DNA from: a virus
Taxonomy: Duplodnaviria > Caudoviricetes
Direction: 5' to 3' (one strand)
IMG/VR virus record: IMGVR_UViG_3300017791_000207
Coordinates: 1 to 64,000 of that record
Length of the DNA stretch: 64,000 nt
The notes beneath the pieces are model-generated. The model saw only the letters and a list, made by a program, of their open reading frames with translations. It made no database searches and was not told the origin of the DNA. Below, piece after piece: positions 27,001 to 57,457 of the stretch. The number at the start of each line of letters is the position of its first letter. The stretch's first letter is position 1. Made by a program: the position numbers and the translations under genes.

Positions 27001-27190
27001 CATTTATGTTAGCTGCAATTTCATTTTGTTATTGTTGCAGATCGGACTATACCACAATCTTTGTAAGATTTCCCTTGGTAGTCTCTAGCACCTCGCCATT
27101 ACGCTTGTGTGTCGGGATTGACTGCTTCCAGTGTTTCCCCGATATTCGGGATTATTCAAAAGTAGTCACCTACTTAGGCCGCTATGCTCA
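27001..27190 (-). ncRNA. Group I self-splicing intron, 190 nt, no ORF
   Basis: Removal restores AAT CCG T|GT GCC GAA (NPCAE) and a 640-aa frame. 5' exon ends in U paired with G in P1 (CCGU^UG-agca-UAGCGG); intron ends in G; P7 strands AGAGACUA and UAUAGUCC present. Confidence 0.9.
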
Positions 27191-28223
27191 ACGGATTATA
27201 TACAACTACCTCTTGATCAGGATACTGTGTCTCTCCTGTTCTACCAATTTCTCGACTTAATTTAAGGTTGATTAAGCCATACGGTTCACCTTGGTTATAA
27301 GTATCCCAAAATTCCTGGGGGAGATGATATAAATTTTCAGGAGAAGCAATTGAATTGTTACTCATTGCCCTCCAATTAGGAATAGAACCTAAATCCCATC
27401 TTTTCGCCTTTAGATATTCTAAATCATCGTAATCACCAATAGCAATTTGAGCAGAACGTCTTACATTTCCCGCAACTACCACAGCACCAATAATATTCAT
27501 AATGTCCAAGCAATCAATAGGTTTTAATTTTTGATTAGCTCTTGAATTAAGAATTTTATGAATTTCATTAATACCCCAACAAAGATCTTCAGGACCTGAT
27601 GCAGTACCACCAAATCCTTTAATAGGAGCACCCTTGCCACGTATTAATTGTGTAGAGTAAGTAAATCCTTCACCATTGTAAAAATGTGCCTTTAAAGTCT
27701 TTCCTAAAAGCTTTACCCAACCTTCTCTTGTATCAGGTACAATGTAATCAGCATTTGCATTATCTACTCTTTCAATTTTAATACGTTTCTTTAACTTTGG
27801 TAATTGATAAACATATTCTCTCTGAATATTATAACCCACCCCTGAACCGACCATCAAAAGCTGCATCGCCCAAGTAAAAGGCTCTATTGGAGAATCGATG
27901 ACAATTCCTGCACAATTTTGAAGAGAATTCAATCCAATTTTATCGACTGTCTTGGTACCCAACTGCCACATAAATCTTCCTGCCACACTAAATTTCAGGT
28001 TTAATCTTAATCTTGCATACTCTTCCTTCTCTTTATCTGTAAATCCAACCTTTAATTGTTTATCAGAGGCTTCAATTTCTCGTTGTACTACTTGCCAAAA
28101 TTCTTCTGTCTTAGAACCAATATCATCTTCCTTCAGTCGCCTTGCATAAGTTCTTTTAAAAGTTATATATCCGATTTCTCCCCATGGAGTTTCAATCTCA
28201 TTTTTCAATTTGTCTAATTGCAT
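27191..28223 (-). CDS. nrdJ: Class II ribonucleotide reductase, exon 1
   Basis: FKRTYAR, AGR, LQNC, GSGVG, DTREGW, GFGGTASGP, VVAGNVRRSA, SNNS, GEP..N, ending YNP. Confidence 0.9.
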
Positions 28224-28313: not shown

Positions 28314-29240
28314 TTAGATTAGTTTCATTCTCTTCTTAAGATGTTTGGTTATTTTCTTGGATTCTTTGATGATGTAATCTCGGAGTGGAATTTTCTCATC
28401 TTCTTCTCCTATTTTGTTCACATCATAATCTCTACCATCATTATCAGAGTCCCAAACTATCACTCCCATAAATTTAATATAGGAGAAAGTACCATCAGCT
28501 TCAAATGAAAAAGGTATCCAATGATAATGTGCTATATCATCAATCCAAGACTCATTATTCAAATCTTCTACTACTTTTAAAGCTTCTTGTTCTATTGGTA
28601 ATTGCATAGGAATGGGTGTTATTTTTTGATTTTGTTGAAATAGTTCATCTACTGATAATCTTGGGATTTTAATATGATAAGGATTTTGTTCATAAGGATA
28701 CCAAGGAGTAATTGTTGAATTTCCTGTTAAAGATCCTTTGAATTCCACCATTGTTACTTTTGATTGATTATCGGTATTTATTCCAACGTTCTTTAAAGCT
28801 TCCTTACATTCTTTAGGTTTAGTGATATCCATTTCTACCCAATTGATAGATGTTTTCGAATCTTTATATGGTATTTTGGTTGGATTCTCACCTATATTTA
28901 AAAGTGGATTATCCTCTTTTTCTTCCTTCATAAGGTCTAATTCTAAGCTACATAAAGCATTCCAACAGAATTGTGCCATATGACGAATTTTAGGATCATA
29001 TTCAGCCATATCTGCATTAAATGTTGATGTTTCGCTTTCTAATAGATGTCTGAGAGCTGCATTTCGGAATTCTATTTGTCCATTTTCTACTCGTGACCAA
29101 TTCATCCAATCTGTGTCGTGGGGGTATTTTCTATTTCCTGCTCGACTACACCTAATAACCTCCTGTAAGGCTCTTGGAAATTGCTTAAATAAAACTTGGA
29201 AATAGGGTAGTTTACCTTCTGAGAATTTTTGTCCTATCAT
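28314..29240 (-). CDS. dATP/dGTP diphosphohydrolase-like domain (DUF5664-like) fused to an unknown C-terminal region
   Basis: KF..GK, G..KY..NW, AALRHL, HMAQFCWNAL in the first 100 aa. Confidence 0.65.
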   Translation of the reverse strand: MIGQKFSEGKLPYFQVLFKQFPRALQEVIRCSRAGNRKYPHDTDWMNWSRVENGQIEFRNAALRHLLESETSTFNADMAEYDPKIRHMAQFCWNALCSLELDLMKEEKEDNPLLNIGENPTKIPYKDSKTSINWVEMDITKPKECKEALKNVGINTDNQSKVTMVEFKGSLTGNSTITPWYPYEQNPYHIKIPRLSVDELFQQNQKITPIPMQLPIEQEALKVVEDLNNESWIDDIAHYHWIPFSFEADGTFSYIKFMGVIVWDSDNDGRDYDVNKIGEEDEKIPLRDYIIKESKKITKHLKKRMKLI

Positions 29241-32492: not shown

Positions 32493-33488
32493 TTATTTCT
32501 TAATTCCAAAGCCATTATCAACTAAATAATGGTAAACTCGTGTTAAATCATTTTCAAAGTTGAGAATGGATAGTACTGATACTGCATTATAACCTTTATT
32601 ACATTCAAATATAGAACCACTGGAAAAAACATACAGAATATTTTTATCAGTATCAACCATTGCTGAAGACTTAGATGAAGTTTTACCAGGTCTTTTTAAG
32701 CGTACATTTCTACCTCTACTACCTTCACCAACTTCCCATCCATTCTCTACCAGAATACTAACTAAATCACCTTCTTCTGCATAGTGTTCAAAAGGAGTTT
32801 TTGACCACTCTATATTAGATTCATACTTAGGTTTAGGCTCTAACTCTCTCACTTCATTTAAAGACCTGACAGCAGCAATCATGTCATCATATTCCTGTTC
32901 AGAAAGTTCACCAATTGTACCATATATTGGTTTATATCCTTCAGAAGGTGCAATTAAGAAATATCCTCCTGCATCTTCACTAGTGCCACTTCTACTCTCT
33001 ATCAAGCAAGCGGATGCATTATTTAAGGCTATTTTAAGAGCTTTAGGTCTTGTCTCAGGATCAGCATAATTTTCTAGATAGGTAATATGCCTTTCTTCAG
33101 GAGTAGTATATCGAGAAGCAAGTTTTTCATTGCCAAATAACCTTGTTGCAGGTACTTTCCATACAAGATGATAACCATTATTTTGAGTGCTCTGAACATA
33201 AGCTTTTTTAAGAATTGAATTTGGTATCACTTCTTTAACTCTATCAAATAAGTCTCCTGTTAGGTCTTGCTTACTATCAACATCCAAACAGAATACTCTC
33301 CACATCCCACCACATAACATTGCTACACCCTCACATGATTTAAAGTATTTCTCAATTTCATCAGGAGATGGTGTACGCCTTTGAAAAGTTCTCCAATTAC
33401 CTATTGAAGGAATCTTATTCTTGGTAGTTGGTATAACACAAAATCCCTTGGCTAAAAATTCACTTGCTGTCTTTACGTGGTTAGGCAT
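32493..33488 (-). CDS. Bifunctional primase-polymerase (PrimPol) domain protein
   Basis: GFCVIP..K.P..W, LDVD, TQNNGYHL, E.R..GGY...PS.GY, RPGK; ATG 33488 follows a promoter box at 33509-33516. Confidence 0.8.
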   Translation of the reverse strand: MPNHVKTASEFLAKGFCVIPTTKNKIPSIGNWRTFQRRTPSPDEIEKYFKSCEGVAMLCGGMWRVFCLDVDSKQDLTGDLFDRVKEVIPNSILKKAYVQSTQNNGYHLVWKVPATRLFGNEKLASRYTTPEERHITYLENYADPETRPKALKIALNNASACLIESRSGTSEDAGGYFLIAPSEGYKPIYGTIGELSEQEYDDMIAAVRSLNEVRELEPKPKYESNIEWSKTPFEHYAEEGDLVSILVENGWEVGEGSRGRNVRLKRPGKTSSKSSAMVDTDKNILYVFSSGSIFECNKGYNAVSVLSILNFENDLTRVYHYLVDNGFGIKK

Positions 33489-33518
33489 ATTTAAATTCAA
33501 TTGTTTCACAAAGATACA

Positions 33519-33550
33519 AAATCCCTCCATAATTTCTTACAGAGGGATAA
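33519..33550 (-). terminator. Intrinsic terminator after ssb-like gene
   Basis: ATCCCTC...GAGGGAT stem followed by TTT on - strand. Confidence 0.55.
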
Positions 33551-43827: not shown

Positions 43828-44457
43828 TTAAGGAGATTGTAATTTATCTACGTAAATTAAATTTGTTTTATTCTTGTCTTTTCCGTTCAACCAACCTCTG
43901 AGGGTTGACCATTTAATATTGTAAGCTTCGGCAGCATCTTTACAACAATCAAAAAATATACCTGTTTGTAAATCCACTACTAGTTTAGCTCTACCATTAT
44001 CTCCTCTTTCTCTCCAACCACAAGGTCTTTTAACACCTTTGAATAATTTACTTATTATATTTCTAGTCTCCTCATTGTGAGTTTTTTCGAAAAATGGATT
44101 TTTACTACCTAATTTAACTTCTGAATATTTTTTTCTACTGTCATCTGATAAAACCGAAGGTAAAATATTAGTAGAAGAATAACAACAATTCAATCCTACA
44201 TTTAATGTATCATAAAATTCCTGCCAATAACGTTCTCTTTCATTAAGGTCTTCAATTGAACATTCTTCGATTATTTCAAAAATATGATTTTTGAATCCAT
44301 ATTCTTGCAACGATTGAAAAATTAATCTTTGATTCTTACAACGGTTATTTCGATAAGAACTCCATCTACTTAATATATTTTTACTTTGTCCTACATATAT
44401 TTCTCCAATGGGATTAATGATCTTATAGATTCCTATTATCTTATTTTTATAAGGCAT
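43828..44457 (-). CDS. GIY-YIG homing endonuclease with NUMOD-like repeats
   Basis: GIYKI..YVGQS..R, FEIIE, ERE, GLN; NPF..KTH.EETR; ATG 44457 is the likely start. Confidence 0.85.
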   Translation of the reverse strand: MPYKNKIIGIYKIINPIGEIYVGQSKNILSRWSSYRNNRCKNQRLIFQSLQEYGFKNHIFEIIEECSIEDLNERERYWQEFYDTLNVGLNCCYSSTNILPSVLSDDSRKKYSEVKLGSKNPFFEKTHNEETRNIISKLFKGVKRPCGWRERGDNGRAKLVVDLQTGIFFDCCKDAAEAYNIKWSTLRGWLNGKDKNKTNLIYVDKLQSP

Positions 44458-44581
44458 AAACAAAAAATCCTCCAAATTAGGTTGCTGAATCACCGAAGTA
44501 ATACCTAAAATGGAGGAGAATAAGTTTATAATAGATGACTCAGCGATACAAATGTAAAACAAATTATTTACAATTCCAAAT

Positions 44582-46636
44582 TTATTTTGATAATTCTTTT
44601 ATTTCTTCCTTAGTTTGAGGTTTACCATAAGTTTCAACAAGCCATTCTTTTCCATAGGTTTCAAGTTGTTTGTTAGTGGGAACCTTGTCTAAACAGAATT
44701 TACGGAAATTTTCAAATTCCTTATTTCTTTTTTCTTCTTCTCTTTTCGCGCGCGCTTTCTCAGCCAATCTTTCTTCTGTGCCATCTATTTTTTCTATGAT
44801 CTTACGACATTCATCAATGTAATAATCATAATCTATACCATATTCAGTAATCGCTGCTTCATAATAAGTATTAAAAATGGTAACTTTCTTATTAGCTTCG
44901 ATATCAATTTGTTTTTCATCCTTGAACTTACGAAATCTTCTTCCTTCCTTAGAAATAAAGTACCTGTTATTCTTTTGCTGAGGAATACTGTCATTTTCAT
45001 CTTCTCCTACCGTTTCACATTTCCATCCATGACTTGCATTGAAAGTTTTACAGAAATCGTAAATATTTTGATGATTATAAATCGTATCAGCTACAGGAAT
45101 ATCCTTTAAATAGAATTCTGATAGGGCATGAGTGACCACACATTGAGATAAGGACTTATGGTATTCTCCATCTTTAATCATCTCTTCACGAGGCTTAAAA
45201 GCACCTTTATATTTAACTTTACCTTTTACATCTTGACTTAGATAGTTATTAACATCTCTTATCACCATTTTTTGATAAGCAACATACTCCAAACCTAATT
45301 TTGTTGTTTTTTCCCATTCCTGACAAACTTCCCAATACAGGCGTTTATATTCTATAGGGATCATTACTGTAATACCATCTGTGTTTACCTGTAATACTTT
45401 TAAATTGGGTACTTTCGTCATCAACATTTCAGATAACATACAAAGTGCTAATTGTCCCGCAAGAGTAGTTTTCAAGGTATATAAAGGATCATATAAGAAG
45501 CTATACATACTATTACTCTTGCCGTAGGTAGCATTTGCGGAGATCTTCAACCCATCAGCCATGGTCTTATCTCCTCGTTTCTTAGCCTCCATACGAGGTT
45601 TTACAATGTTATCCTCATATACAGTAAGAAATTCCTTACCCAAGTGATAAGGATATAAACCATTGGTAATAGCTAAGTTAGGATACAAGGAACCTACGTC
45701 CGCATCAACAATACATTCTTTATCCGTAGATTTATATATTCCTGGTTTAATACACATGTGAATGCCTCCTGTCCCAAGGTCAAACTCAGCATCTCCAAAC
45801 GAAAAAGAGTATTTAAAAGAATCCTTTAATTCCGTTACTTCAATGCCTTTTAAATATTCAAGAAGTTCATTAAATTCAGGAGTCTCAAAACTTACATAAT
45901 CAGGGATACATTCGCGAAATCTAAAACCCTTACGAAAAGTCCTCATCTTACGAACTTCATCAATAGGTTTAGATGTATGTTCACAATATAATTTGAGTAC
46001 TAATTCTTCACCAATTTTACTATCGGAGAAATTCATACAATTTATACCATATTTGTCTCTTAATCCTCTCCTAAGTTCAAGTTTATCTAAAGTCTTGGTA
46101 TAAAATGTCTTGGTAGCTTCTACATCATTTTTATTGTATGATAGGATTTCTTGCACTTGTTCTTCTGTTTCTATTTCTTGATCGTGAGCATAAGGCATAT
46201 CTTGGACATTCGGAAACTGCATAGCTATTTCTAGCTTTTTAAGTGAACATCTCCTAGCATTATTATCGTAGTGCCAAATCTTATAAAGATCCAACTGAGG
46301 AATAAGAACTTCGACTTCCTTTACCATAGAAAATAACTCGTCAATTACTTTTTGAGCTTTTTTATAGATTTCCTTGGCTAATCGTTTTCCTGTATAAGTA
46401 AGGAATTTATCTCTATTTTTTAGAATATGATGAATTACGGGATAATCGAACTCCAAATTATTATACCCTATTTGTCCTTTAAGAGTGTCTAAATGGTCTA
46501 ATAAAGCAGGTAAATCATTTCTTTTATGCCAAATAACAAACATTTTAGTATCATCGCTGTCTCTGTCTGTACCCGTATAAGTGAAACAATTACAGAGAGT
46601 CTCAATATCATAAACTTCTACTCTATTCTTTACCAT
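44582..46636 (-). CDS. Family B DNA polymerase
   Basis: Exonuclease motifs YDIE, YN..FD, YNKND; polymerase motifs DVGSLYP, K...NATYG, VNTDG. Confidence 0.92.
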   Translation of the reverse strand: MVKNRVEVYDIETLCNCFTYTGTDRDSDDTKMFVIWHKRNDLPALLDHLDTLKGQIGYNNLEFDYPVIHHILKNRDKFLTYTGKRLAKEIYKKAQKVIDELFSMVKEVEVLIPQLDLYKIWHYDNNARRCSLKKLEIAMQFPNVQDMPYAHDQEIETEEQVQEILSYNKNDVEATKTFYTKTLDKLELRRGLRDKYGINCMNFSDSKIGEELVLKLYCEHTSKPIDEVRKMRTFRKGFRFRECIPDYVSFETPEFNELLEYLKGIEVTELKDSFKYSFSFGDAEFDLGTGGIHMCIKPGIYKSTDKECIVDADVGSLYPNLAITNGLYPYHLGKEFLTVYEDNIVKPRMEAKKRGDKTMADGLKISANATYGKSNSMYSFLYDPLYTLKTTLAGQLALCMLSEMLMTKVPNLKVLQVNTDGITVMIPIEYKRLYWEVCQEWEKTTKLGLEYVAYQKMVIRDVNNYLSQDVKGKVKYKGAFKPREEMIKDGEYHKSLSQCVVTHALSEFYLKDIPVADTIYNHQNIYDFCKTFNASHGWKCETVGEDENDSIPQQKNNRYFISKEGRRFRKFKDEKQIDIEANKKVTIFNTYYEAAITEYGIDYDYYIDECRKIIEKIDGTEERLAEKARAKREEEKRNKEFENFRKFCLDKVPTNKQLETYGKEWLVETYGKPQTKEEIKELSK

Positions 46637-47463
46637 TGGTATATTCCTCCTCTATCAATAAAGGTTTTACGATTAAGGTTTATTTCAGAAAGACATTTGT
46701 TCAAGGTATTCTCTTGAAGTTTACTGGAATAAGTATGTCTTCCTTCACTATTTTCGAATAATCTCCCTTGAGGATCAATCAGTAAATAAGATCCTGTCAT
46801 AGCTTCATTATCTTCTACTACCATAGAAGGATGAGAGTGTTTTTGAACAAATCTTTCAAATCCATTCCAATAAGTTCTAATTTCTTCAAATTGAGTATCA
46901 TTTTGACCTTCTACTCTAAGCGTGTCAAATATTTTCCATCGAGAAGGGTTAGCCCATGAAATGAATTTTTGCATATCTTCATTTTGGTTGTATCTATTTA
47001 CTACAGTATTTATTTTCAGTTTAAATCCCATAGACTTTATTTTATGGATTAACACAAAATAATCAAATTCTTTTTTGGAAGTACGCCCTATTTTAAGGTT
47101 AGTTTCAGGATTCAGAGAGTCAATAGAAATACCAATCCAATCGAGTTTACCTTTGAATTTAGTTAGAAGTTCATCTGTCAATAAAGAACCATTTGTAATA
47201 ATAGAAGTTACCAAGTCTATCTTCTTAGAATAAGAAATAACTTCATAAATCCATCTGTAAAGAAGTGGTTCTCCTCCCGCGAAAGTCACTTTCTCTACTC
47301 CACCTTCTTTAAGCTTATCCAAGATATTGAATACATCCCCTTTAGAGATCTGATTTATAACATGCATATCTTCAAAGGTTGCATAACAGAATTTACATTT
47401 CATGTTACATGGTTTGACTATATGGAATGATACTGTCTCAAATGGTTTATTATCGTTTTTCAT
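46630..47463 (-). CDS. Viperin-like radical SAM enzyme (putative ddhNTP synthase)
   Basis: FH..KPCNMKCKFCY, KVTFAGGEP, SIITNGS, ISIDS, KINTVVN, P.RWKIF, VEGQN, EDN..MTGSY..IDP.GR.F: viperin-type motifs along the whole length. Confidence 0.85.
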   Translation of the reverse strand: MKNDNKPFETVSFHIVKPCNMKCKFCYATFEDMHVINQISKGDVFNILDKLKEGGVEKVTFAGGEPLLYRWIYEVISYSKKIDLVTSIITNGSLLTDELLTKFKGKLDWIGISIDSLNPETNLKIGRTSKKEFDYFVLIHKIKSMGFKLKINTVVNRYNQNEDMQKFISWANPSRWKIFDTLRVEGQNDTQFEEIRTYWNGFERFVQKHSHPSMVVEDNEAMTGSYLLIDPQGRLFENSEGRHTYSSKLQENTLNKCLSEINLNRKTFIDRGGIYQW

Positions 47464-48114
47464 ACTTTCTCTTTTTCTTAAAACTATTAGAATAATACTC
47501 CTTCAACTTCTTAATCTTCTCTGCTAAGTTTTCATACCTATTGATAGCTTCTATATGTTTGTCTATTTCTATCCAGTCGATGTATAATATGTTTTCTTGT
47601 TGTACCATTTTATCCATTCTTTTGAGAATCTATCATTTTGAATCTATAAATTCTAAGTAACATTCTAAATTTAGCACGAGTAGTCCAATTTCTTGGAAAT
47701 CTTTTTTCTTTTAATTGTCGAAGGTAAAAGAAATCATTATTTGTCATATTTTGATAAGTTTTAATGCTTCCTGTAATCCTAATTCAAGGCACTCTTCATA
47801 ATTACTAAAAGAGTTCATACAAGTATAACGTGTTCTTTCACCTATCTGATTTGGAGTATCATAGTGATAGATATCATAAGAATACTTGCCTGATGATCTT
47901 AGTATCGGTAATACATCTATTTTATGGATTTCTCTTAACCATTTTTGAAGTAGTCCTTGTGTTGGGGCAGAGATTATTTCTTTAGCATATGCATGCCAAT
48001 GAGCTACATAATTATTTAATTTCTTATCTACATAGACTTTTTCATTTGGATCAATAACAAAACCCCTTTGTTTAGTTAAGACTGCTGTCTCATAACTTAT
48101 TAATTGTTCTTCCA

Positions 48115-48837
48115 TTATCTTCTTTTAAGTAAAGGTACGAAAAATATTAACATCATAATACCTGAAAAAATAAAATCTGTGGAATGTTTGTCTAAAATAT
48201 GTTTAACATTGACAAGAGCAGGAGTATAATCTACAATTGCAGTAAATAAGAGTTTTAAACCTAATAAACCAATTACAATAAATGCTGATTTTTCAAGAGT
48301 TGGAAATTTCTCCATGAGTACAGAAAACCTGCTTGCAATGAATCTCATGATAAAAATACCAATGAACACTCCAATACAAATTATCCAAATATTTTTACTC
48401 ATACCCACTACAGCAACCAAATTATCCAAGGAAAATACAATATCAACAAACTCCACTACAATTACCGTACTCCAAAACACATTGATTCCTGACCTAGAAA
48501 CAAGCTTATCAAACCAATGTGTTTCTCCTTCTTCAATAGAGTCTTTCTGCGGTGTTAATCCTCCATAGGTAAGTTTCAAAAGATATAATCCTCCAAGAAT
48601 CTTAAATATATCTCCTACAACAGGATTATTTAAGAGCCATGCTACTAAAAATAAACATGCTCCTCTGAAAACACAAGCCCCTACAATACCATACTTTAAT
48701 GCTTTATCTCTATCTTTACCTTGTAGATTTTTATTGACTATTACTGCCAAAACGGCAGCGTTGTCAATTGAAAGAGAGGCTTCTAAAAGTACGATTATCA
48801 ATACAGTACATATTAATTGAATTATTTCTGTTATCAT
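48115..48837 (-). CDS. terC: TerC-family integral membrane protein
   Basis: LEASLSIDNAAVLA, ALKYG, FRG, GGLYL, E..DIVFSLDN; multiple TM helices. Confidence 0.9.
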   Translation of the reverse strand: MITEIIQLICTVLIIVLLEASLSIDNAAVLAVIVNKNLQGKDRDKALKYGIVGACVFRGACLFLVAWLLNNPVVGDIFKILGGLYLLKLTYGGLTPQKDSIEEGETHWFDKLVSRSGINVFWSTVIVVEFVDIVFSLDNLVAVVGMSKNIWIICIGVFIGIFIMRFIASRFSVLMEKFPTLEKSAFIVIGLLGLKLLFTAIVDYTPALVNVKHILDKHSTDFIFSGIMMLIFFVPLLKRR

Positions 48838-48943: not shown

Positions 48944-49804
48944 TCATTTGATTAAGTTTTTGGTTTGAAGAAGTGTTTTGATGTATTTCAGGTTTTCTTG
49001 GTAGCTTTCATCAAGATGATATGAATTACCAATTGCCTGATGATAAAGTGTGTGAAGGAATTTATAAGATTGGTATGAAACAAAAGTTTTAAATTCCTCT
49101 TTCTTACTGTTGAGAATATACTTTACAGTTCGTGTATTAAGTAGAAATCCACCTATAGACTTCATTACTTGGTTTAGTTGCACCAAGGATTTTACATAGG
49201 CATAATTCAAATAATTCTCAATGTTTGGGTTGATATCAGCATTAACTAATTCTGCATAATAAAGGTAAGAATATTCGCACTCCAACTGGTAAGAATCCAC
49301 CATTTTCTGAATCATCTTTTCATGTGAACCTGTAATTCTAATATCATCTAGGAACAGACAGTATTTACCTTTTACAAAGTCCTTGTCAATATGAAAGGTA
49401 TCTTTCCCAATCAATCTCATGCGATCCTCAGCAGATAAGGCACCATAGTCCTCATGATAAGAAATACTACGTGTAATCTTTGTCTCTTGTACAACAGGTA
49501 AATTATGCTCGGCTAGCCAATGGTTTAAAGCCCTCACAAAATAATCCTTCATGGCAAATGTAGCCGTAGGAATAAACTGATAGGGAGAAGATACTACCAC
49601 TATTTGGGTACCTTTAAACTCACGAGGAGAATACATCTCGTATATTTGACCTATAAACTTTTGAGCAAGTTCTTCACCGAATTGTTGAGCAATCTTTTTA
49701 TGTCCGAATTTAAATTTTGAATAATCAATTGGGCTGAATGGTATTTCTTCAGATTTAATTTGGTGTACTGCAATAGTTGAGGACTTCACTAAATTGTTTG
49801 TCAT
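48944..49804 (-). CDS. Phosphoribosyltransferase (ter-associated, ComF-like)
   Basis: YSKFKFG, PY..IPTA, PRPP loop LFLDDIRITGSH. Confidence 0.8.
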   Translation of the reverse strand: MTNNLVKSSTIAVHQIKSEEIPFSPIDYSKFKFGHKKIAQQFGEELAQKFIGQIYEMYSPREFKGTQIVVVSSPYQFIPTATFAMKDYFVRALNHWLAEHNLPVVQETKITRSISYHEDYGALSAEDRMRLIGKDTFHIDKDFVKGKYCLFLDDIRITGSHEKMIQKMVDSYQLECEYSYLYYAELVNADINPNIENYLNYAYVKSLVQLNQVMKSIGGFLLNTRTVKYILNSKKEEFKTFVSYQSYKFLHTLYHQAIGNSYHLDESYQENLKYIKTLLQTKNLIK

Positions 49805-50366
49805 TTGTATTAATTTGTAGATATGGAATTCCGATTTGTTGACAACCTCCATCAGCAATAGGATTATCTCCTATATGAAGGTGAGCTCTTTCATCAAAGA
49901 ATCGTGGATTAGGTTTAGCCATTCCTGTTACATCAGAATAAGCACAGTAGTCAATAAGTTTGGGAAATAGGGTTTTAATTACCTTATCCAAGGTTCTTCC
50001 TTCAATAACACCTGTATTGGATATAATGCCCACTGATATACCACTTTCTTTTAAGATACTGAGTGTAGGAATAATGGTTTCATCATAGGGTAATGGTATA
50101 TTTTCAAGGAATATAGCCTCTAAATCAGGGTAGATCTTATCATAATCGGGATACTTACCACCTTCTATCGAGAGGTAATGATATCTTTCAATAAGTGTGG
50201 AATGTCTGCCTGTTATTTCATCAAGACGAGTGAAATAATCTTTCATCTTTTTCACTGATAATTCAGTTACTCCAAAATACTTTTTCCAAACTCTTTCATA
50301 CGCCAAACCCCTGAATAAGGGATTCGGACGTATAAGAGTCATCCATAGATCGGTTGTGATGATCAT
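49755..50366 (-). CDS. HAD-family hydrolase
   Basis: DLWMTL, ISNT, KP, HIGDN..AD. Confidence 0.85.
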   Translation of the reverse strand: MIITTDLWMTLIRPNPLFRGLAYERVWKKYFGVTELSVKKMKDYFTRLDEITGRHSTLIERYHYLSIEGGKYPDYDKIYPDLEAIFLENIPLPYDETIIPTLSILKESGISVGIISNTGVIEGRTLDKVIKTLFPKLIDYCAYSDVTGMAKPNPRFFDERAHLHIGDNPIADGGCQQIGIPYLQINTNDKQFSEVLNYCSTPN

Positions 50367-50508: not shown

Positions 50509-51084
50509 TTAAGAATTTGTATAATGATTTGCAATTTCGTTAATATTACCATTTGATCCTGTGCCTAATGCTTCGAATTTCCACTCATCATTATGCTTGT
50601 ATATTTTACCAAACATCACACCATTAAAGCCTGAATAATCTTCTGATAAATCATACTTGATCAGTTCGGTATTGCTGTCAGCATTTACAGCACGAATAAA
50701 TGCATTTCTTACCATTCCAAATTGTTGATTTCCACGAGAAGAAGCTTCATAGATATTCACTCCAATGGCGACTTCATTACAATCATCAGGTAAGGTACTT
50801 AGATCAATCATAATAACTTCATCATCTCCATCTCCTGCACCAGTTAAGTTATCACCGCCATGTTTGACACCTTGGCCTACCTTGTTATTGAAGTAGATGA
50901 TGGATTGAACACCTCCGTGTAATTTACCATCTTTGATTTCTAAGGCAAAAGCATCTAAATCATAGGCAGGACCATTGCCTTGGTTAACATCCCAACCTAA
51001 ACCGATGTTTAATTTTGTAAGACCTGGGTTTGTTTTCGTCAAGTCTACTTTTTGTCCTTTTACTAAATTAATTGTGTCTGACAT
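50509..51084 (-). CDS. terD: TerD-family protein
   Basis: INLVKGQKVDL, GLGWD, DLDA, YFNN, GDNLTGAGDGDDE, FGMVRNAFIR, YDLSED, WKFEALG. Confidence 0.92.
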   Translation of the reverse strand: MSDTINLVKGQKVDLTKTNPGLTKLNIGLGWDVNQGNGPAYDLDAFALEIKDGKLHGGVQSIIYFNNKVGQGVKHGGDNLTGAGDGDDEVIMIDLSTLPDDCNEVAIGVNIYEASSRGNQQFGMVRNAFIRAVNADSNTELIKYDLSEDYSGFNGVMFGKIYKHNDEWKFEALGTGSNGNINEIANHYTNS

Positions 51085-51117: not shown

Positions 51118-51498
51118 TTAAGAAAAATCTGCAATGATTAATTTAAGTTGTTCAATAGTATCTTCAAAAGTTTTGATTTCAGCTTCGGTTTGAGACACTT
51201 CTTGTTCAGCTTCATAAACTTTTTTACGAGCTTGTTCGCGGAATGCAAGGTAAGATTCAAAATTTTTATCAGTTCTGAAACGACTTTCTTCAAATGCTTT
51301 CTTGGCTTTTACCACTTGATTTTGATTACGAGCTAATTTTAGTTTGGCTTTTTGAAGATCACCTGTTTCTACATTTGCTAGTTCTAACTGAGCATCAATC
51401 AAAGCCTCCTGAGCAAATTGTTCGATTTTCTCTTTTTGAATTTGTTTCTCGTCTTTGTTTACAGTTTTAAGCACTGCTGCTACGAATTTGTTTGTCAT
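51118..51498 (-). CDS. Coiled-coil protein
   Basis: Helical K/E/Q-rich 126-aa ORF just upstream of terD. Confidence 0.55.
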   Translation of the reverse strand: MTNKFVAAVLKTVNKDEKQIQKEKIEQFAQEALIDAQLELANVETGDLQKAKLKLARNQNQVVKAKKAFEESRFRTDKNFESYLAFREQARKKVYEAEQEVSQTEAEIKTFEDTIEQLKLIIADFS

Positions 51499-52250
51499 TT
51501 TGATGTGTTTTTTAATTTAATTGTTTGAAATGGTTTTGATTCTTGTTTGTTATTAGGAATAAATACTTCTAATTTTTTACGTTTGTTTTTTGATAATGTT
51601 GGATAACACTCTTTCGGAGTCAAAGGTACTATAAAATGTTCTTCTATTGTTGGTATGGATTGTAAATCTTTGTTAATGTCTTTCTTAGGAATTTCCTGTG
51701 GTAAAGCTTTTACCCATCTTCCTATTAGACTTTTTGGTTTATTAAATTCCTTCACATTAAATGGTTTGCCGATTCTTTCATACTCTTCTATTTCTTCTTT
51801 TGAAGCTTTTCGAAATTTAAGTTTGGATTCATATTTTGAATCACCATTCCAACCATTGTTTCTAAGACTCTTATCTACATGCACATTAAAACCTCTTGCA
51901 TCTTCATAAGAATCTCTTGATAGTTTATAACAGTAATTTATGGGTATTGAATCCTGCCAAGTGTCCTTACCGTTGCATCCTGCCAAAAGAACTATATAAC
52001 TATCTTTTGGATATTGACAAACTTCTTCTACTATTTCTGCCCATTTTTTAGTATCATAAAGAAGTGGAGTAATATCTTCCTTTTCTTTAACTCCTACAAT
52101 TATATCACCGCCACTTGTCCAAAAACGGGGTTCACTATCTACTGTATAAATATCAGTAATTGTTGGGGTATGAGCAGGTTTAAACTTAGCACCAATTGGA
52201 TACCTTCGTTTTGCCTCTTCTAATAAGGCTTCTTGTGAGTTGTTTTCCAT
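51495..52250 (-). CDS. Hypothetical phage protein
   Basis: LLEEAKRRYP.G...WAEIV module and R.A..EEI motif. Confidence 0.55.
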   Translation of the reverse strand: MENNSQEALLEEAKRRYPIGAKFKPAHTPTITDIYTVDSEPRFWTSGGDIIVGVKEKEDITPLLYDTKKWAEIVEEVCQYPKDSYIVLLAGCNGKDTWQDSIPINYCYKLSRDSYEDARGFNVHVDKSLRNNGWNGDSKYESKLKFRKASKEEIEEYERIGKPFNVKEFNKPKSLIGRWVKALPQEIPKKDINKDLQSIPTIEEHFIVPLTPKECYPTLSKNKRKKLEVFIPNNKQESKPFQTIKLKNTSK

Positions 52251-52254
52251 AAGT

Positions 52255-53112
52255 TTATTTTATTGTTTTCCACGCTTTTAAACCAAGTGATTTTATTTCG
52301 TATAGTTCTACCTTCTTAAGAGGTTCATTTTGTAAAGGTAAATTATTATTTCCTTTCAAAAAGTTAAAATTACACATGAATGAATAATCATTTCCTACTT
52401 TAATTCGATATATACCTACTTTCTTTACATGGTATGTGTCAATAAGGTTTTTAGAACTGTCAATTTTAGTCCATGTATAAGTGTCAGGATTTTGCACGTA
52501 TGGATCATCTGAAGAATACATAATTTCTACTTCTTTGAAATTTACAGGATCAACTTTCCAATCCAAGAAATCATAACCAATTTCATAAAATAGAATACTA
52601 AAACCAAGAGGTATATTTGAGCAATCTAATACATAGATTCTGTTAGAAGCATTACCTGATAATTGGATCGTGTCACCTACCTGATATTGAATACCATTAT
52701 AAAAGAATAGTGCTGAATCAGAAAGGGTTACAGTATTAAAAGAACCTTGATTAGAATTATTACTTGTCGTACTGAAAAGATGTGTTTCGCCACCTTGTAC
52801 ATAAAGATGTCCATTACCTGTGAAATTTACCTGATTAAGAGTAGTATAACCATTTGTATAGATGTTTCCACCATAGGGTAAATTGATTGTTTGATAATTC
52901 AATACATTGTTAAATGTCCAATTATAAATATTATTCCAATTTACACTTGTACTGATTGTCATTGGTCCTTGGAAGCACTGATCACCATTGAAACTTTGGT
53001 TTGTCAAGTAAGAGCCTGTTACAGGATTATTACATGGTGGTGTAAAGTTACATTGAGCCTGACTTATATAGGAAATACCTGAGAGTAGGCTGATTAAGAT
53101 TGTCTTTTTCAT
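52255..53112 (-). CDS. Secreted protein resembling Bacteroidota surface proteins
   Basis: MKKTILISLLSGISYISQA/Q; N/T/G-rich beta body; PL..F....L.W...EI.YS.D..W..I Ig-like segment. Confidence 0.55.
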   Translation of the reverse strand: MKKTILISLLSGISYISQAQCNFTPPCNNPVTGSYLTNQSFNGDQCFQGPMTISTSVNWNNIYNWTFNNVLNYQTINLPYGGNIYTNGYTTLNQVNFTGNGHLYVQGGETHLFSTTSNNSNQGSFNTVTLSDSALFFYNGIQYQVGDTIQLSGNASNRIYVLDCSNIPLGFSILFYEIGYDFLDWKVDPVNFKEVEIMYSSDDPYVQNPDTYTWTKIDSSKNLIDTYHVKKVGIYRIKVGNDYSFMCNFNFLKGNNNLPLQNEPLKKVELYEIKSLGLKAWKTIK

Positions 53113-53114
53113 TT

Positions 53115-53522
53115 TTAGCAAAATTTTTGTTTTATTTCTTGATAAAATTCTTTACCTTCTTCTGAAAGGTCATTTTTAAACCACCATTTATCATTATCAT
53201 GTAGACAAGATAGCTCAATTAAAAATTCTTCTCCTAATTCTTGAATATCTTCGGGCAGCATATTCCATATTCTACTAATCCCTGCTTCTCCAAATACTTT
53301 ATCAATTACTTTGCGTAGAGATTTAGGGAGCAATCTACCCACAGCATCTCCATCTGTTTCTACCATAAGGCTTTCTCCACTATACATGACTTGTCCCCAA
53401 TATCTATTTGTAAAGCCTCTGTAGTCTTCTTCCTCTTTCCATCCTATGCAGCGAGGATGTTCTTTGTAATATTGGACTGTATCATCCAATATCTGTCTTC
53501 TACGATTTTTAATTGGTTTCAT
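53115..53522 (-). CDS. Hypothetical protein, paralogue of 63577..63996
   Basis: Shared LD...YY, C, GR, LP, F.....LHD...W...L...G. Confidence 0.6.
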   Translation of the reverse strand: MKPIKNRRRQILDDTVQYYKEHPRCIGWKEEEDYRGFTNRYWGQVMYSGESLMVETDGDAVGRLLPKSLRKVIDKVFGEAGISRIWNMLPEDIQELGEEFLIELSCLHDNDKWWFKNDLSEEGKEFYQEIKQKFC

Positions 53523-56340: not shown

Positions 56341-56519
56341 TATATTCTAAATATTGTTTTGATTAAATTTTTAGTTGCCAAATCAGAAATAGTTTTAACT
56401 ACGCCTGATTGTTGTCTTTCTAAATTTTGAGTATATCTTTTCTTATACTCTTCTCGAACTTGTTCAGATTTTTTTAATGACCATTTTCCATGAACAAGAT
56501 ATTTGTCTATTGTATTCAT
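56340..56519 (-). CDS. 59-aa ORF coupled to both RT (ATGA) and helicase (TAATG)
   Basis: MNTIDKYLVHGKWSLKKSEQVREEYKKRY...KTIFRI; exact overlaps at both ends. Confidence 0.55.
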   Translation of the reverse strand: MNTIDKYLVHGKWSLKKSEQVREEYKKRYTQNLERQQSGVVKTISDLATKNLIKTIFRI

Positions 56520-57457
56520 TGTATTAAAAGTTTAGCTTCAAGATTCCTCGCGTTGGCATGACCAGTCCAACCAAGATAGGAAGCGATTGATGTTAATTTG
56601 TGCCTGTTTCTTCGGAAATTTTCTTTGATATATTTTCTTACTTTTACTTTATCCTGATCAATTACATAACCAAGGAAGTCCAAAGGTCTTTTATTGATAG
56701 GAAATACTTGTTTATTCGAGAGTTTCAATCTTAATTTTTTATCAAGGTAATCTTCAATCTCATTTTTCAAGTAATATAAATACTCTTTACTCTCATGAAA
56801 TATTACAATGTCATCGCAGTAGATAGCAAGATATTTTATTTTTATGACTTCTTTAAGGTAATGTGAGAATTCGTTAAGATAAACATTTCCAAACCACTGC
56901 GAGGTAAAATTACCAAGTACGCAGCCATGCTCGATAGAATCAATAATCAAATCTAACAACCACAATAAATCAGGATCTTTAAACTTACGTCTCAGAAAGC
57001 CTTTCAAAAGGTCGTGAGATAGTGATGGGTAAAATTTCTGAATATCCATCTTCAAAACATACTTAGTTCCTTTCCTATCTTTAAGATGTTTCTTAATGTC
57101 TTTCAAGCACTTATGGACTCCGCGCGATTTAAGGCAAGAATAGGTCTGAGAAATAAAACTATCTTTTAAAATATCTCCAATGACAAGTATTATCGCCCAT
57201 TGAACAACACGATCTTTAAATGGAAGCTTTGAAATAATTCTTTCTTTAGGCTCATAAATCTTGAATACGAAATACTCCGATAACTTATAGGTTCTTGTTA
57301 ATAATTCTTGCTGTAAGAGTCTCAAATTTTCACTTAAATTACTGTTCCATATCCTAACATCCTTCTTCTTTCTTTTGCCTTTCTGCGCCTTCTGAGAAGC
57401 CTTTATGAGGTTCTCCATACTCACTATCTTATAGAATAAATTTCCTTTTCTTTTCAT
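56516..57457 (-). CDS. DGR reverse transcriptase
   Basis: F.IYEPKER.I, FKDRVVQ, MDIQKFYPS, LGNFTSQ (DGR-type GxxxSQ), YCDD, DFLGY. Confidence 0.93.
   Translation of the reverse strand: MKRKGNLFYKIVSMENLIKASQKAQKGKRKKKDVRIWNSNLSENLRLLQQELLTRTYKLSEYFVFKIYEPKERIISKLPFKDRVVQWAIILVIGDILKDSFISQTYSCLKSRGVHKCLKDIKKHLKDRKGTKYVLKMDIQKFYPSLSHDLLKGFLRRKFKDPDLLWLLDLIIDSIEHGCVLGNFTSQWFGNVYLNEFSHYLKEVIKIKYLAIYCDDIVIFHESKEYLYYLKNEIEDYLDKKLRLKLSNKQVFPINKRPLDFLGYVIDQDKVKVRKYIKENFRRNRHKLTSIASYLGWTGHANARNLEAKLLIQ

What the first reader, a model, noticed from the sequence alone, without database searches (positions are those of the whole stretch)
44582..47463. Phage-encoded viperin-like enzyme translationally coupled to the DNA polymerase
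Seen: a 277-aa radical SAM ORF with viperin-type motifs whose stop overlaps the PolB start by 7 nt (46630-46636), downstream of a TACCTTCG promoter-like box at 47719. Established: prokaryotic viperins are host anti-phage enzymes that convert NTPs to 3'-deoxy-3',4'-didehydro-NTP chain terminators acting on phage RNA polymerases such as T7 RNAP. Inference: a phage placing this enzyme in its core replication operon suggests a captured defence gene used against co-infecting phages or host transcription. That would require resistance in the phage's own polymerases or primase.
Basis: partly seen in the sequence, partly recalled or inferred. Interest (0 to 1): 0.85.

Follow-up and report, generated by a model that had tools for sequence, protein, structure and literature searches.

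The report
Viperin gene carried by a phage
A complete 115-kb phage of Bacteroidota-type bacteria carries an intact copy of viperin, the enzyme cells use to make antiviral chain-terminator nucleotides; the gene belongs to a separate, conserved branch found almost only in phages, but its position next to the DNA polymerase is peculiar to this one genome.

Summary
ORF 46630-47463(-) encodes a 277-aa radical SAM protein that passes NCBI's viperin model (281.8 bits, cut-off 180). Its predicted structure matches solved viperins (TM 0.83-0.93). Its stop overlaps the DNA polymerase start by 7 nt.

The carrier is a complete uncultivated phage with terminal repeats, terminase, portal and capsid genes. 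No integrase or T7-type RNA polymerase was found.

The main result is phylogenetic. The protein belongs to a tight clade under purifying selection (dN/dS 0.06-0.17), with more than 120 protein clusters. I found the clade on IMG/VR viral contigs and metagenome contigs. Among 185,579 species genomes it appears once, on a phage-like MAG contig. It is absent from 50,697 phage records and from BFVD. Its nearest cellular relatives are Bacteroidota pVips.

- Viperin-PolB adjacency recurs in none of about 39 other clade loci, nor in the closest PolB relative.
- TACCTTCG lies inside a small ORF and is not promoter-like.
- Start/stop overlaps are routine in this genome (40 of 142 gene pairs).

The most likely role is ddhNTP production against rival phages, which is an inference. 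This scan had already noted phage-borne viperins on other DNA (e1-3411521, e1-5996479).

The parts
46630..47463 (-). Viperin-family radical SAM enzyme (277 aa; predicted NTP 3'-dehydratase making ddhNTPs)
   Evidence: NF038283 281.8 bits vs cut-off 180. PADLOC pVip 274 bits. Solved viperins E 1e-45 to 2e-36. AF2 pLDDT 94.5, TM 0.83-0.93 to viperin crystal structures. Asn238 sits at the mouse Cys314 position.
46630..46636 (-). 7-nt stop/start overlap ATGGTAA between viperin and the polymerase
   Evidence: Read directly from the sequence. 40 of 142 same-strand pairs in this genome overlap, three of them by 7 nt.
44582..46636 (-). DNA polymerase, family-B type by motifs (684 aa)
   Evidence: phrog_1252 'DNA polymerase' E 4.8e-153. 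955 phage records hold homologues annotated as DNA polymerase. The translation shows DxE exonuclease, DxxSLYP, KxxxNxxYG and xTDG motifs. Pfam and PDB sequence searches gave nothing significant.
43828..44562 (-). GIY-YIG/NUMOD3 homing endonuclease just downstream of the polymerase
   Evidence: PF01541 and PF07460; phrog_314 E 6.6e-30. A 34%-identical copy follows PolB in L011.
47450..47617 (-). 55-aa ORF overlapping the viperin start by 14 nt; function unknown
   Evidence: no family hit
47610..47747 (-). 45-aa ORF that contains the TACCTTCG box (47719-47726)
47744..48115 (-). 123-aa phage protein of unknown function (phrog_12005)
   Evidence: homologues lie near PolB in L020 and L022
48115..48837 (-). 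TerC-family membrane protein. It is the last gene of the Ter-type cassette, and its stop overlaps the next gene's start by 1 nt.
   Evidence: PF03741 E 1e-44
48944..49858 (-). ComF-like phosphoribosyltransferase of the Ter-associated type (PRTase_3)
   Evidence: PF15610 E 1.2e-82. Homologues occur in 157 phage records, none of which holds a viperin.
49755..50366 (-). HAD-type hydrolase/phosphatase
   Evidence: phrog_14393 E 3e-16; PF00702 weak, below the Pfam cut-off
50509..51084 (-). TerD-domain protein
   Evidence: PF02342 E 9.5e-61
32493..33530 (-). Primase-polymerase (PrimPol); context for the self-compatibility argument
   Evidence: PF09250 E 2.3e-9

Best explanation
The ORF encodes a functional viperin: a radical SAM enzyme that converts ribonucleoside triphosphates into 3'-deoxy-3',4'-didehydro-NTPs (ddhNTPs). 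It probably acts on more than one base, because it has the Asn-type pocket of promiscuous prokaryotic viperins.

The gene is an accessory gene of a probably virulent phage of a Bacteroidota-type host. It belongs to a phage-borne viperin lineage that split from cellular Bacteroidota pVips and moves between unrelated phages.

It is probably expressed with the early/replication genes, because it sits in an unbroken chain of overlapping ORFs. I infer that it floods the infected cell with chain terminators that stall polymerases brought in by competing phages, such as phage-encoded RNA polymerases. The carrier itself would escape because it uses the host RNA polymerase, a family-B DNA polymerase and a PrimPol.

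Shown: identity, fold, motifs, viral carriage, the separate clade, purifying selection, and the lack of conserved neighbours. Inferred: ddhNTP production, timing of expression, the target, and self-immunity.
For: Identity:
- NF038283 281.8 bits against a cut-off of 180; MoaA models score only 88 bits against a cut-off of 284.
- PADLOC pVip and solved viperins matched over the full length.
- AF2 model pLDDT 94.5. The top PDB hits are all viperins (TM 0.83-0.93, rmsd 1.6-2.0 A); SkfB, PqqE and MoaA reach at most 0.67.
- 49 positions are shared at 90% or more with 74 cellular pVips. They include the cluster cysteines, GGE, the basic residues and the C-terminal R-G-Y.
- Asn238 aligns with mouse Cys314. 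This is the 'Asn pocket' linked to promiscuous ddhNTP synthesis.

Viral carriage:
- The record has direct terminal repeats and is rated 100% complete.
- It encodes terminase, portal, major head protein and a giant virion protein shared with Cellulophaga and Flavobacterium phages.
- No integrase was found.

Separate clade:
- More than 120 clusters at 63% identity or more, nearly all metagenomic, on contigs up to 130 kb.
- 12 IMG/VR contigs plus about 27 metagenome contigs carry clade members.
- In the tree the clade has SH-aLRT 99 and a stem length of 0.5. It sits apart from the main Bacteroidota pVip clade.
- Only one of 185,579 species genomes holds a member. That is a 39.7-kb MAG contig whose viperin is 96% identical in protein to the one on viral contig L028.

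Selection: dN/dS is 0.06-0.17 for unsaturated pairs.

Accessory, mobile character:
- 105 neighbouring ORFs around 12 viral viperins show terminase, homing endonucleases, ThyA, Rad52 and a methylase, but no recurrent partner and no kinase.

Self-compatibility:
- No T7-type RNA polymerase in any of 7 viperin phage records, while the T7 control scored E 1e-110.
- A PrimPol is present.
- A review states that viperins have not been shown to be toxic to the host (PMC13276650).

Precedent: phages are known to carry antiviral cargo against competitors (PMC9122126).
Against: - No biochemical or expression data.
- The clade has replaced a nearly invariant residue beside the active site: Ser12 where 96% of cellular viperins have Asn. 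Several other conserved positions also differ. Altered chemistry therefore cannot be excluded.
- Absence of a T7-type polymerase is expected for most phages of this size, so it is weak support.
- Insensitivity of the host polymerase is known only from E. coli work.
- Superinfection exclusion is less obviously useful to a virulent phage than to a prophage.
- No competitor or target polymerase is identified.
Confidence: 0.5

Rival explanations
1. Anti-defence or host takeover. The phage makes 3'-deoxy nucleotides to poison host enzymes that need a 3'-OH. Candidates are the cyclases of CBASS or type III CRISPR, defence reverse transcriptases and primases, or host transcription. This would disable immunity or host gene expression rather than rival phages.
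For: The enzymatic identity is the same as in the main explanation. The gene lies among early/replication genes of a phage with no integrase, where takeover and anti-defence genes usually sit. The chemistry (loss of the 3'-OH) would in principle block any 3'-5' bond formation; this is inference.
Against: Viperin expression has not been shown to harm host cells in published work (PMC13276650). No defence-related enzyme is known to be ddhNTP-sensitive. Nothing in the loci examined points to a specific host target.
Confidence: 0.2
2. Pathway with the Ter cassette. Viperin works together with the directly upstream TerD-HAD-PRTase-TerC genes. A base-like compound is ribosylated by the PRTase, dehydrated by viperin and dephosphorylated by the HAD enzyme. 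The product would be a non-canonical ddh-nucleoside metabolite, analogous in enzyme composition to the Ophion system (radical SAM + phosphatase + PRTase).
For: TerC through PolB form one chain of overlapping ORFs with no intergenic gap. The Ter-type PRTase_3, HAD, TerD and TerC genes lie within 3.6 kb upstream. One other viperin phage (G003) also carries TerD and PRTase_3, on the same strand as its viperin. Ophion shows that radical SAM + phosphatase + PRTase can act together against phages (10.1101/2025.09.30.679545).
Against: Four of five other large viperin phages have neither TerD nor PRTase_3, and two of them are complete genomes. In G003 the cassette is 12-14 kb from viperin. None of about 39 other clade loci has Ter genes within 8-10 kb. 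The PRTase/HAD pair occurs in 157 phage records that lack viperin. The Ophion radical SAM enzyme is reported to be phylogenetically distinct from viperins, and its phosphatase is PHP, not HAD.
Confidence: 0.12
3. Nucleotide-pool or DNA-modification role. The ddh-nucleotide is a precursor or regulator for the phage's own nucleic-acid chemistry, such as a hypermodified base or sugar, rather than a weapon.
For: A preprint notes pVip annotations inside IMG/VR DNA-hypermodification gene neighbourhoods (10.1101/2023.12.21.572611). This phage has other nucleotide enzymes: a MazZ-like diphosphohydrolase domain, RNR fragments and a PRTase.
Against: No glycosyltransferase, 5mYOX/TET or hydroxymethylase family appeared among 105 neighbour ORFs; one ThyA was the only such hit. 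A 3'-deoxy ribonucleotide cannot be extended once it is in DNA. No PurZ was found.
Confidence: 0.05
4. Neutral passenger: a recently captured host gene with no role for the phage.
For: Its position differs in every phage, and it is often near homing endonucleases.
Against: The clade is deep (56-77% identity among members), widespread (more than 120 clusters) and under strong purifying selection (dN/dS 0.06-0.17). All catalytic residues are retained.
Confidence: 0.03

Closest known systems
Prokaryotic viperins (pVips; Bernheim et al. 2021; NCBIfam NF038283, PADLOC pVip)
   Same: Same family by curated HMM, same fold, same cluster, SAM and triphosphate-binding residues, and the same Asn-type nucleobase pocket. 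The nearest cellular relatives are Bacteroidota pVips at 43-46% identity.
   Different: This gene is carried by a phage, not by a cell's defence island. It forms a separate clade with a long stem. It has no fused or neighbouring nucleotide kinase, whereas the nearest cellular relative (Flavicella) is a viperin-cytidylate-kinase fusion of 477 aa. Ser replaces the near-invariant Asn of the N-x-H motif.
Animal and fungal viperin (RSAD2; PDB 6Q2P, 5VSL, 7N7H, 7N7I, 9DFW)
   Same: Full-length structural match (TM 0.83-0.93, 28-34% identity) and the same C-terminal RGG-Y-W tail.
   Different: No N-terminal membrane helix. Asn238 and His243 stand in place of the CTP-selective Cys314 and Lys319. It scores 152 bits against the 450-bit cut-off of the animal model TIGR04278.
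Antiviral cargo of phages and satellites (P2/P4 hotspots; PMC9122126)
   Same: A mobile virus carries an immune-type gene in a variable region, presumably to exclude competitors.
   Different: Those carriers are temperate phages or satellites of enterobacteria with other systems. Here the carrier shows no integrase, and the cargo is viperin.
Ophion (OpnA radical SAM + OpnB PHP phosphatase + OpnC PRTase; bioRxiv 10.1101/2025.09.30.679545)
   Same: A similar set of enzyme types lies within 4 kb: radical SAM, phosphatase and PRTase.
   Different: OpnA is reported to lie outside the viperin clade. The phosphatase fold differs (PHP vs HAD). TerC and three small ORFs intervene here, and the linkage is not conserved among viperin phages.
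Ter-associated nucleoside-like metabolite gene sets (TerD/TerC with PRTase and HAD enzymes; Pfam PF15610 'PRTase ComF-like')
   Same: TerD, HAD, PRTase_3 and TerC are present, co-oriented and directly upstream.
   Different: This is an independent module found in 157 phage records without viperin. No ATP-grasp enzyme was detected.

Membership tests
Viperin family (NF038283 / pVip) | Full-length match above the curated family cut-off | tested here: met
   281.8 bits vs 180, residues 10-272 on profile positions 3-280 of 281. PADLOC pVip 274 bits.
Viperin family (NF038283 / pVip) | Radical SAM CxxxCxxC cluster motif and GGE SAM-binding motif | tested here: met
   C19, C23, C26 and G63-G64-E65 are invariant in alignments A1 and A2.
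Viperin family (NF038283 / pVip) | Viperin-specific C-terminal extension ending R-G-G-x-Y-x-W | tested here: met
   R271, G272, G273, Y275 and W277 align with the tail of the T. virens viperin-like enzymes 9DFW (engineered) and 6B4C.
Viperin family (NF038283 / pVip) | Viperin fold rather than MoaA or another radical SAM fold | tested here: met
   AF2 pLDDT 94.5. All top PDB hits are viperins (TM 0.83-0.93); MoaA, SkfB and PqqE reach 0.55-0.67.
Viperin family (NF038283 / pVip) | Nucleobase-pocket residue in the beta-8 loop (Asn in most prokaryotic viperins) | tested here: met
   Asn238 aligns with the Cys314 position of the mouse-type loop in 9DFW. It is Asn in 64 of 74 cellular and 31 of 32 clade sequences.
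Viperin family (NF038283 / pVip) | Asn of the N-x-H motif preceding the cluster loop | tested here: not met
   Ser12 in 100% of the phage clade vs Asn in 96% of cellular pVips; His14 is retained. The consequence is unknown. This is a conserved position, not a curated defining feature.
Viperin family (NF038283 / pVip) | Makes ddhNTPs; protects against phage | not testable with these tools
   Needs expression, LC-MS and plaque assays.
Viperin family (NF038283 / pVip) | Typical context: defence island and/or nucleotide kinase partner | tested here: not met
   The gene lies in a phage genome. No Cytidylate_kin2 in the genome and no kinase among 105 neighbour ORFs of 12 clade loci. This is a typical context, not a defining one.
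Animal-type viperin (TIGR04278) | Score above the curated cut-off | tested here: not met
   152 bits vs 450
MoaA (GTP 3',8-cyclase) | Score above the curated cut-off; C-terminal second cluster | tested here: not met
   87.8 bits vs 284, and the match covers the N-terminal radical SAM core only
Ophion | OpnA-type radical SAM (outside viperins) + PHP phosphatase + PRTase as a three-gene unit | tested here: not met
   The radical SAM enzyme here is a true viperin, the phosphatase is HAD, and the genes are not contiguous. The OpnA/B/C HMMs were not available.
Family-B DNA polymerase (the neighbouring gene) | Exonuclease DxE motif plus DxxSLYP, KxxxNSxYG and DTD motifs | tested here: inconclusive
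   The motifs are visible in the translation, and phrog_1252 'DNA polymerase' scores E 4.8e-153. Pfam, NCBIfam and PDB sequence searches give no significant PolB hit.

The most novel reading that the evidence does not exclude
Viperin and the contiguous TerD-HAD-PRTase-TerC genes form one phage-encoded pathway that builds a non-canonical 3'-deoxy-didehydro nucleoside or nucleotide. This would be Ophion-like chemistry on a base other than C, U or G. The clade's Asn-to-Ser change beside the active site would reflect the new substrate.
Probability: 0.1. Interest if true: 0.85.

Novelty: new variant of a known kind. Interest (0 to 1): 0.6.

Why it matters
Viperin is the textbook example of an immune enzyme shared by bacteria and animals, and all functional work treats it as a weapon of the cell.

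A coherent viperin lineage that lives in phage genomes, moves between unrelated phages and is under purifying selection implies that viruses deploy the same chain-terminator chemistry for their own ends. The likely target is other viruses.

The question becomes testable. Which polymerases does a phage's own viperin spare, and which does it hit? Bacteroidota phages are a good setting, because several groups bring their own RNA polymerases.

The clade also offers compact 270-280-aa enzymes without kinase partners for making ddh-nucleotides.

In the papers I could search, phage viperins appear only as passing annotations, with no analysis.

Tried and rejected
1. MoaA or a generic radical SAM identity: rejected on scores and fold.
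2. TACCTTCG as a promoter: rejected. It lies inside a 45-aa ORF, occurs 17 times on both strands and has no common flanks. Promoter and terminator scans are at chance.
3. Shine-Dalgarno-driven coupling to PolB: rejected. GGAGGA is the RGG codons, and the genome does not use SD.
4. Conserved viperin-PolB synteny: rejected.
5. Kinase partner: none found.
6. Phage RNA polymerase: no PF00940 hit, with a positive T7 control. The 1778-aa virion protein has no DxDxD motif and no PDB match. The 1556-aa protein resembles large polyvalent proteins, not a polymerase.
7. Z-genome pathway: there is a MazZ-like domain but no PurZ.
8. The unknown 251-, 288-, 126- and 135-aa proteins upstream of TerD: no family even at E 1.
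9. True viperins in catalogued phages: tblastn of 50,697 records gave no full-length homologue; the best hit had 23.5% identity at E 4e-6. BFVD gave only generic radical SAM folds, TM 0.64 or less. The 'viperins' reported for Vibrio Schizotequatroviruses (PMC12028318) did not show up, and I could not check them further.
The Bernheim 2021 paper is not held, so statements about it rest on reviews and memory.
Full report
**What is there**

The minus strand of the window holds a 277-aa ORF at 46630-47463 and a 684-aa ORF at 44582-46636. The first ends ...TGG TAA and the second begins ATG GTA, so the two share ATGGTAA, a 7-nt overlap. The polymerase's first exonuclease motif starts at residue 8. 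No downstream start is therefore possible, and the overlap is real.

**Identity of the 277-aa protein**

- It passes NCBI's equivalog model for prokaryote-type viperins (NF038283: 281.8 bits, cut-off 180). MoaA models reach only 88 bits against a cut-off of 284, and the animal model TIGR04278 reaches 152 of 450.
- PADLOC's three pVip models score 262-274 bits.
- Every solved viperin or viperin-like enzyme matches over the full length, E 1e-45 to 2e-36.
- An AlphaFold model built on 30 relatives has pLDDT 94.5. It superposes on the mouse, Nematostella and Trichoderma enzymes with TM 0.83-0.93 and rmsd 1.6-2.0 A. The next fold class (SkfB, PqqE, MoaA) stays at 0.55-0.67.
- The cluster cysteines (C19, C23, C26), GGE (63-65), the conserved basic residues and the C-terminal R-G-G-x-Y-x-W tail are all present. 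In total 49 positions are shared at 90% or more with 74 cellular pVips.
- In the beta-8 loop, Asn238 aligns with mouse Cys314 and His243 with Lys319. Shomar et al. associate this Asn pocket with promiscuous ddhNTP synthesis in most prokaryotic viperins (10.1101/2023.09.13.557418).

**The carrier is a phage**

- The window is the first 64 kb of a 115,287-bp IMG/VR record with direct terminal repeats, rated 100% complete.
- It encodes a large terminase, a portal, a major head protein and a 1778-aa virion protein. Homologues of the virion protein are in Cellulophaga phages phi4:1 and phi17:2, Flavobacterium phage FpV4 and a gut 'csAssE' phage.
- Shine-Dalgarno-like words precede only 9 of 160 genes, below background. 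This fits a Bacteroidota host (the SD-poor nature of Bacteroidota is established knowledge).
- No tyrosine integrase was found.
- No T7-type RNA polymerase was found, with T7 itself as a positive control.
- Replication genes around the viperin include a large helicase, a DnaB-like helicase, a second helicase, a PrimPol and a PD-(D/E)XK nuclease.

**A phage-borne viperin clade**

- The 5.8-billion-protein search returned 1904 hits at E<=1e-20. More than 120 clusters have 63-77% identity. Nearly all come from metagenomes, some on contigs of 70-130 kb.
- IMG/VR holds 12 clade members at 56-69% identity. Several are on records with terminal repeats, and two of those are rated complete. JGI and ENA metagenome contigs add about 27 more.
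- A scan of one genome for each of 185,579 prokaryote species found a single clade member. It lies on a 39.7-kb contig of a Bacteroidota MAG. Its viperin is 96% identical in protein to the one on viral contig L028 (95% in DNA), and a collagen-repeat, fibre-like gene lies nearby.
- The next best cellular hits are at 43-46% identity and are Bacteroidota: Flavicella, Chitinophagales and Flavobacteriaceae. The Flavicella protein is a viperin-cytidylate-kinase fusion.
- In a maximum-likelihood tree of 108 sequences, the viral and metagenomic sequences form one group with SH-aLRT 99 and a stem of 0.5. The group also holds that MAG contig and one long-branch Chitinophagaceae chromosomal gene set among housekeeping genes. 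It is separate from the main Bacteroidota pVip clade. This was a quick search, and the root is not inferred.
- Pairwise dN/dS for unsaturated pairs is 0.06-0.17.
- The 50,697 phage records of INPHARED hold no full-length homologue, PHROGs has no viperin family, and BFVD has no viperin-like fold. The tool notes that records of this genome or of one very near it may be left out of these collections.

**Context is not conserved**

- Proteins of this genome were compared with the flanks of all other clade loci. PolB appears next to viperin in none of them.
- Of five other large viperin phages, four have no homologue of this PolB. The fifth (G003) has one 43 kb from its viperin.
- The closest PolB relative (L011, 65% identity) has three small unrelated ORFs upstream and the same kind of GIY-YIG homing endonuclease downstream.
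- A Pfam tally of 105 neighbour ORFs from 12 viral loci shows typical phage content: terminase, HNH, GIY-YIG and LAGLIDADG endonucleases, ThyA, Rad52, a methylase, one integrase and a CHAP lysin. There is no recurrent partner and no kinase.
- Viperin therefore behaves as a mobile accessory gene placed in variable regions.

**The local operon**

- From TerC to PolB the ORFs overlap one after another, by 1, 4, 8, 14 and 7 nt.
- Such overlaps are common in this genome, at 40 of 142 same-strand pairs.
- The TACCTTCG box lies inside the 45-aa ORF of this chain. The 8-mer is over-represented (11 in the window against 0.74 expected), but it occurs on both strands, mostly inside genes and without common flanks. 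I leave it unexplained; it is not a promoter.
- Sigma-70 promoter and terminator scans are at chance.

**The Ter cassette**

- Directly upstream lie TerD, a HAD hydrolase, a ComF-like PRTase_3 and TerC.
- This set is a module of its own. The PRTase (usually with the HAD gene) occurs in 157 phage records that have no viperin.
- Among five other large viperin phages only G003 has TerD and PRTase_3, 12-14 kb from its viperin. Five PolB-related phages without viperin have no TerD.
- The numbers are too small to show linkage. G003 also shares other genes of this region with the subject, so common descent explains the co-occurrence.
- The enzyme set (radical SAM + phosphatase + PRTase) recalls the validated Ophion system, but that system's radical SAM enzyme is reported to lie outside the viperins. 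I keep a joint pathway as the most novel reading, at about 10%.

**Mechanism**

By homology the enzyme should abstract the 4'-hydrogen of an NTP and eliminate the 3'-hydroxyl, giving ddhNTPs that terminate RNA chains. This is the established chemistry of the family, as summarised.

A review states that these enzymes have not been shown to be toxic to the producing cell (PMC13276650). From memory of Bernheim et al. 2021, which I could not read here, host-polymerase transcription was spared while T7-polymerase transcription was blocked.

A phage that relies on the host polymerase could therefore afford to make ddhNTPs. It could gain by blocking co-infecting phages that bring their own polymerases. 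None of seven viperin phage records encodes a T7-type polymerase. This is consistent with the idea but is weak evidence.

One caution: the clade has Ser where cellular viperins have the Asn of the N-x-H motif, plus a handful of other fixed differences. A shifted substrate range is possible.

**Novelty**

In the papers I could search, phage viperins appear in two passing mentions only:
- pVip annotations in IMG/VR hypermodification neighbourhoods (10.1101/2023.12.21.572611).
- 'Viperins' in the accessory genome of Vibrio Schizotequatroviruses (PMC12028318). My searches did not find these as true homologues.

The large viperin phylogenies do not discuss virus-encoded members.

This scan has already reported the same phenomenon on other phage DNA (e1-3411521, e1-5996479). 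My results agree with those reports and were obtained independently here.

**Verdict**

The gene is a real, intact, selected viperin on a phage, which is worth following up. The special link to the DNA polymerase and the promoter box are not supported.

Noticed in passing
window 47719-47726 and 10 other sites; 17 in the genome: The 8-mer TACCTTCG occurs 11 times in the window against 0.74 expected from shuffles. It is on both strands, mostly inside genes, with no shared flanking sequence. It is not a promoter; the cause is unknown.
   Followed up: partly
window 46630-47463 (residue 12 and others): The phage viperin clade has fixed differences from cellular pVips: Ser12 for the near-invariant Asn of the N-x-H motif, Leu228 for Met (100% in cells), Leu235 for Phe, Cys257 for Ala. 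The functional meaning is unknown.
   Followed up: partly
window 28314-29240 (-): A 308-aa protein carries the N-terminal domain of dATP/dGTP diphosphohydrolases (PF18909, the MazZ type of Z-genome phages). No PurZ-like adenylosuccinate synthetase is in the genome.
   Followed up: partly
window 27174-28223 (-): A 349-aa ORF carries only the RNR alpha and class II RNR insertion domains. This may be a split or fragmented ribonucleotide reductase.
   Followed up: no
window 56516-57457 (-): A reverse transcriptase (RVT_1, E 1.7e-15) lies among the early genes.
   Followed up: no
window 2083-6753 (+): A 1556-aa orphan protein has no PHROG, PDB or phage-record match. By language-model features it resembles large 'polyvalent' proteins of phages and conjugative elements.
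   Followed up: partly
genome 74639-77749 (L120:10639-13746): The large terminase is unusually long (1036 aa). Its N-terminal part also gives weak hits to primase and DnaC-like P-loop families.
   Followed up: no
window 51118-53522 (-): Four co-oriented proteins (135, 288, 251 and 126 aa) between the helicase and TerD have no family even at E 1. The 251- and 126-aa ones have homologues 5-7 kb downstream of viperin in viral contig L026, the first inside a 785-aa protein.
   Followed up: partly
L041:5992-7422: The nearest cellular relative (Flavicella sediminum) is a 477-aa viperin fused to a cytidylate-kinase-like domain, next to an 827-aa TPR protein.
   Followed up: no
L011:1099-3456: The closest PolB relative may carry an N-terminal extension of about 100 aa that this phage's PolB lacks, if the ORF's first ATG is used. 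A GIY-YIG endonuclease follows in the same position.
   Followed up: no
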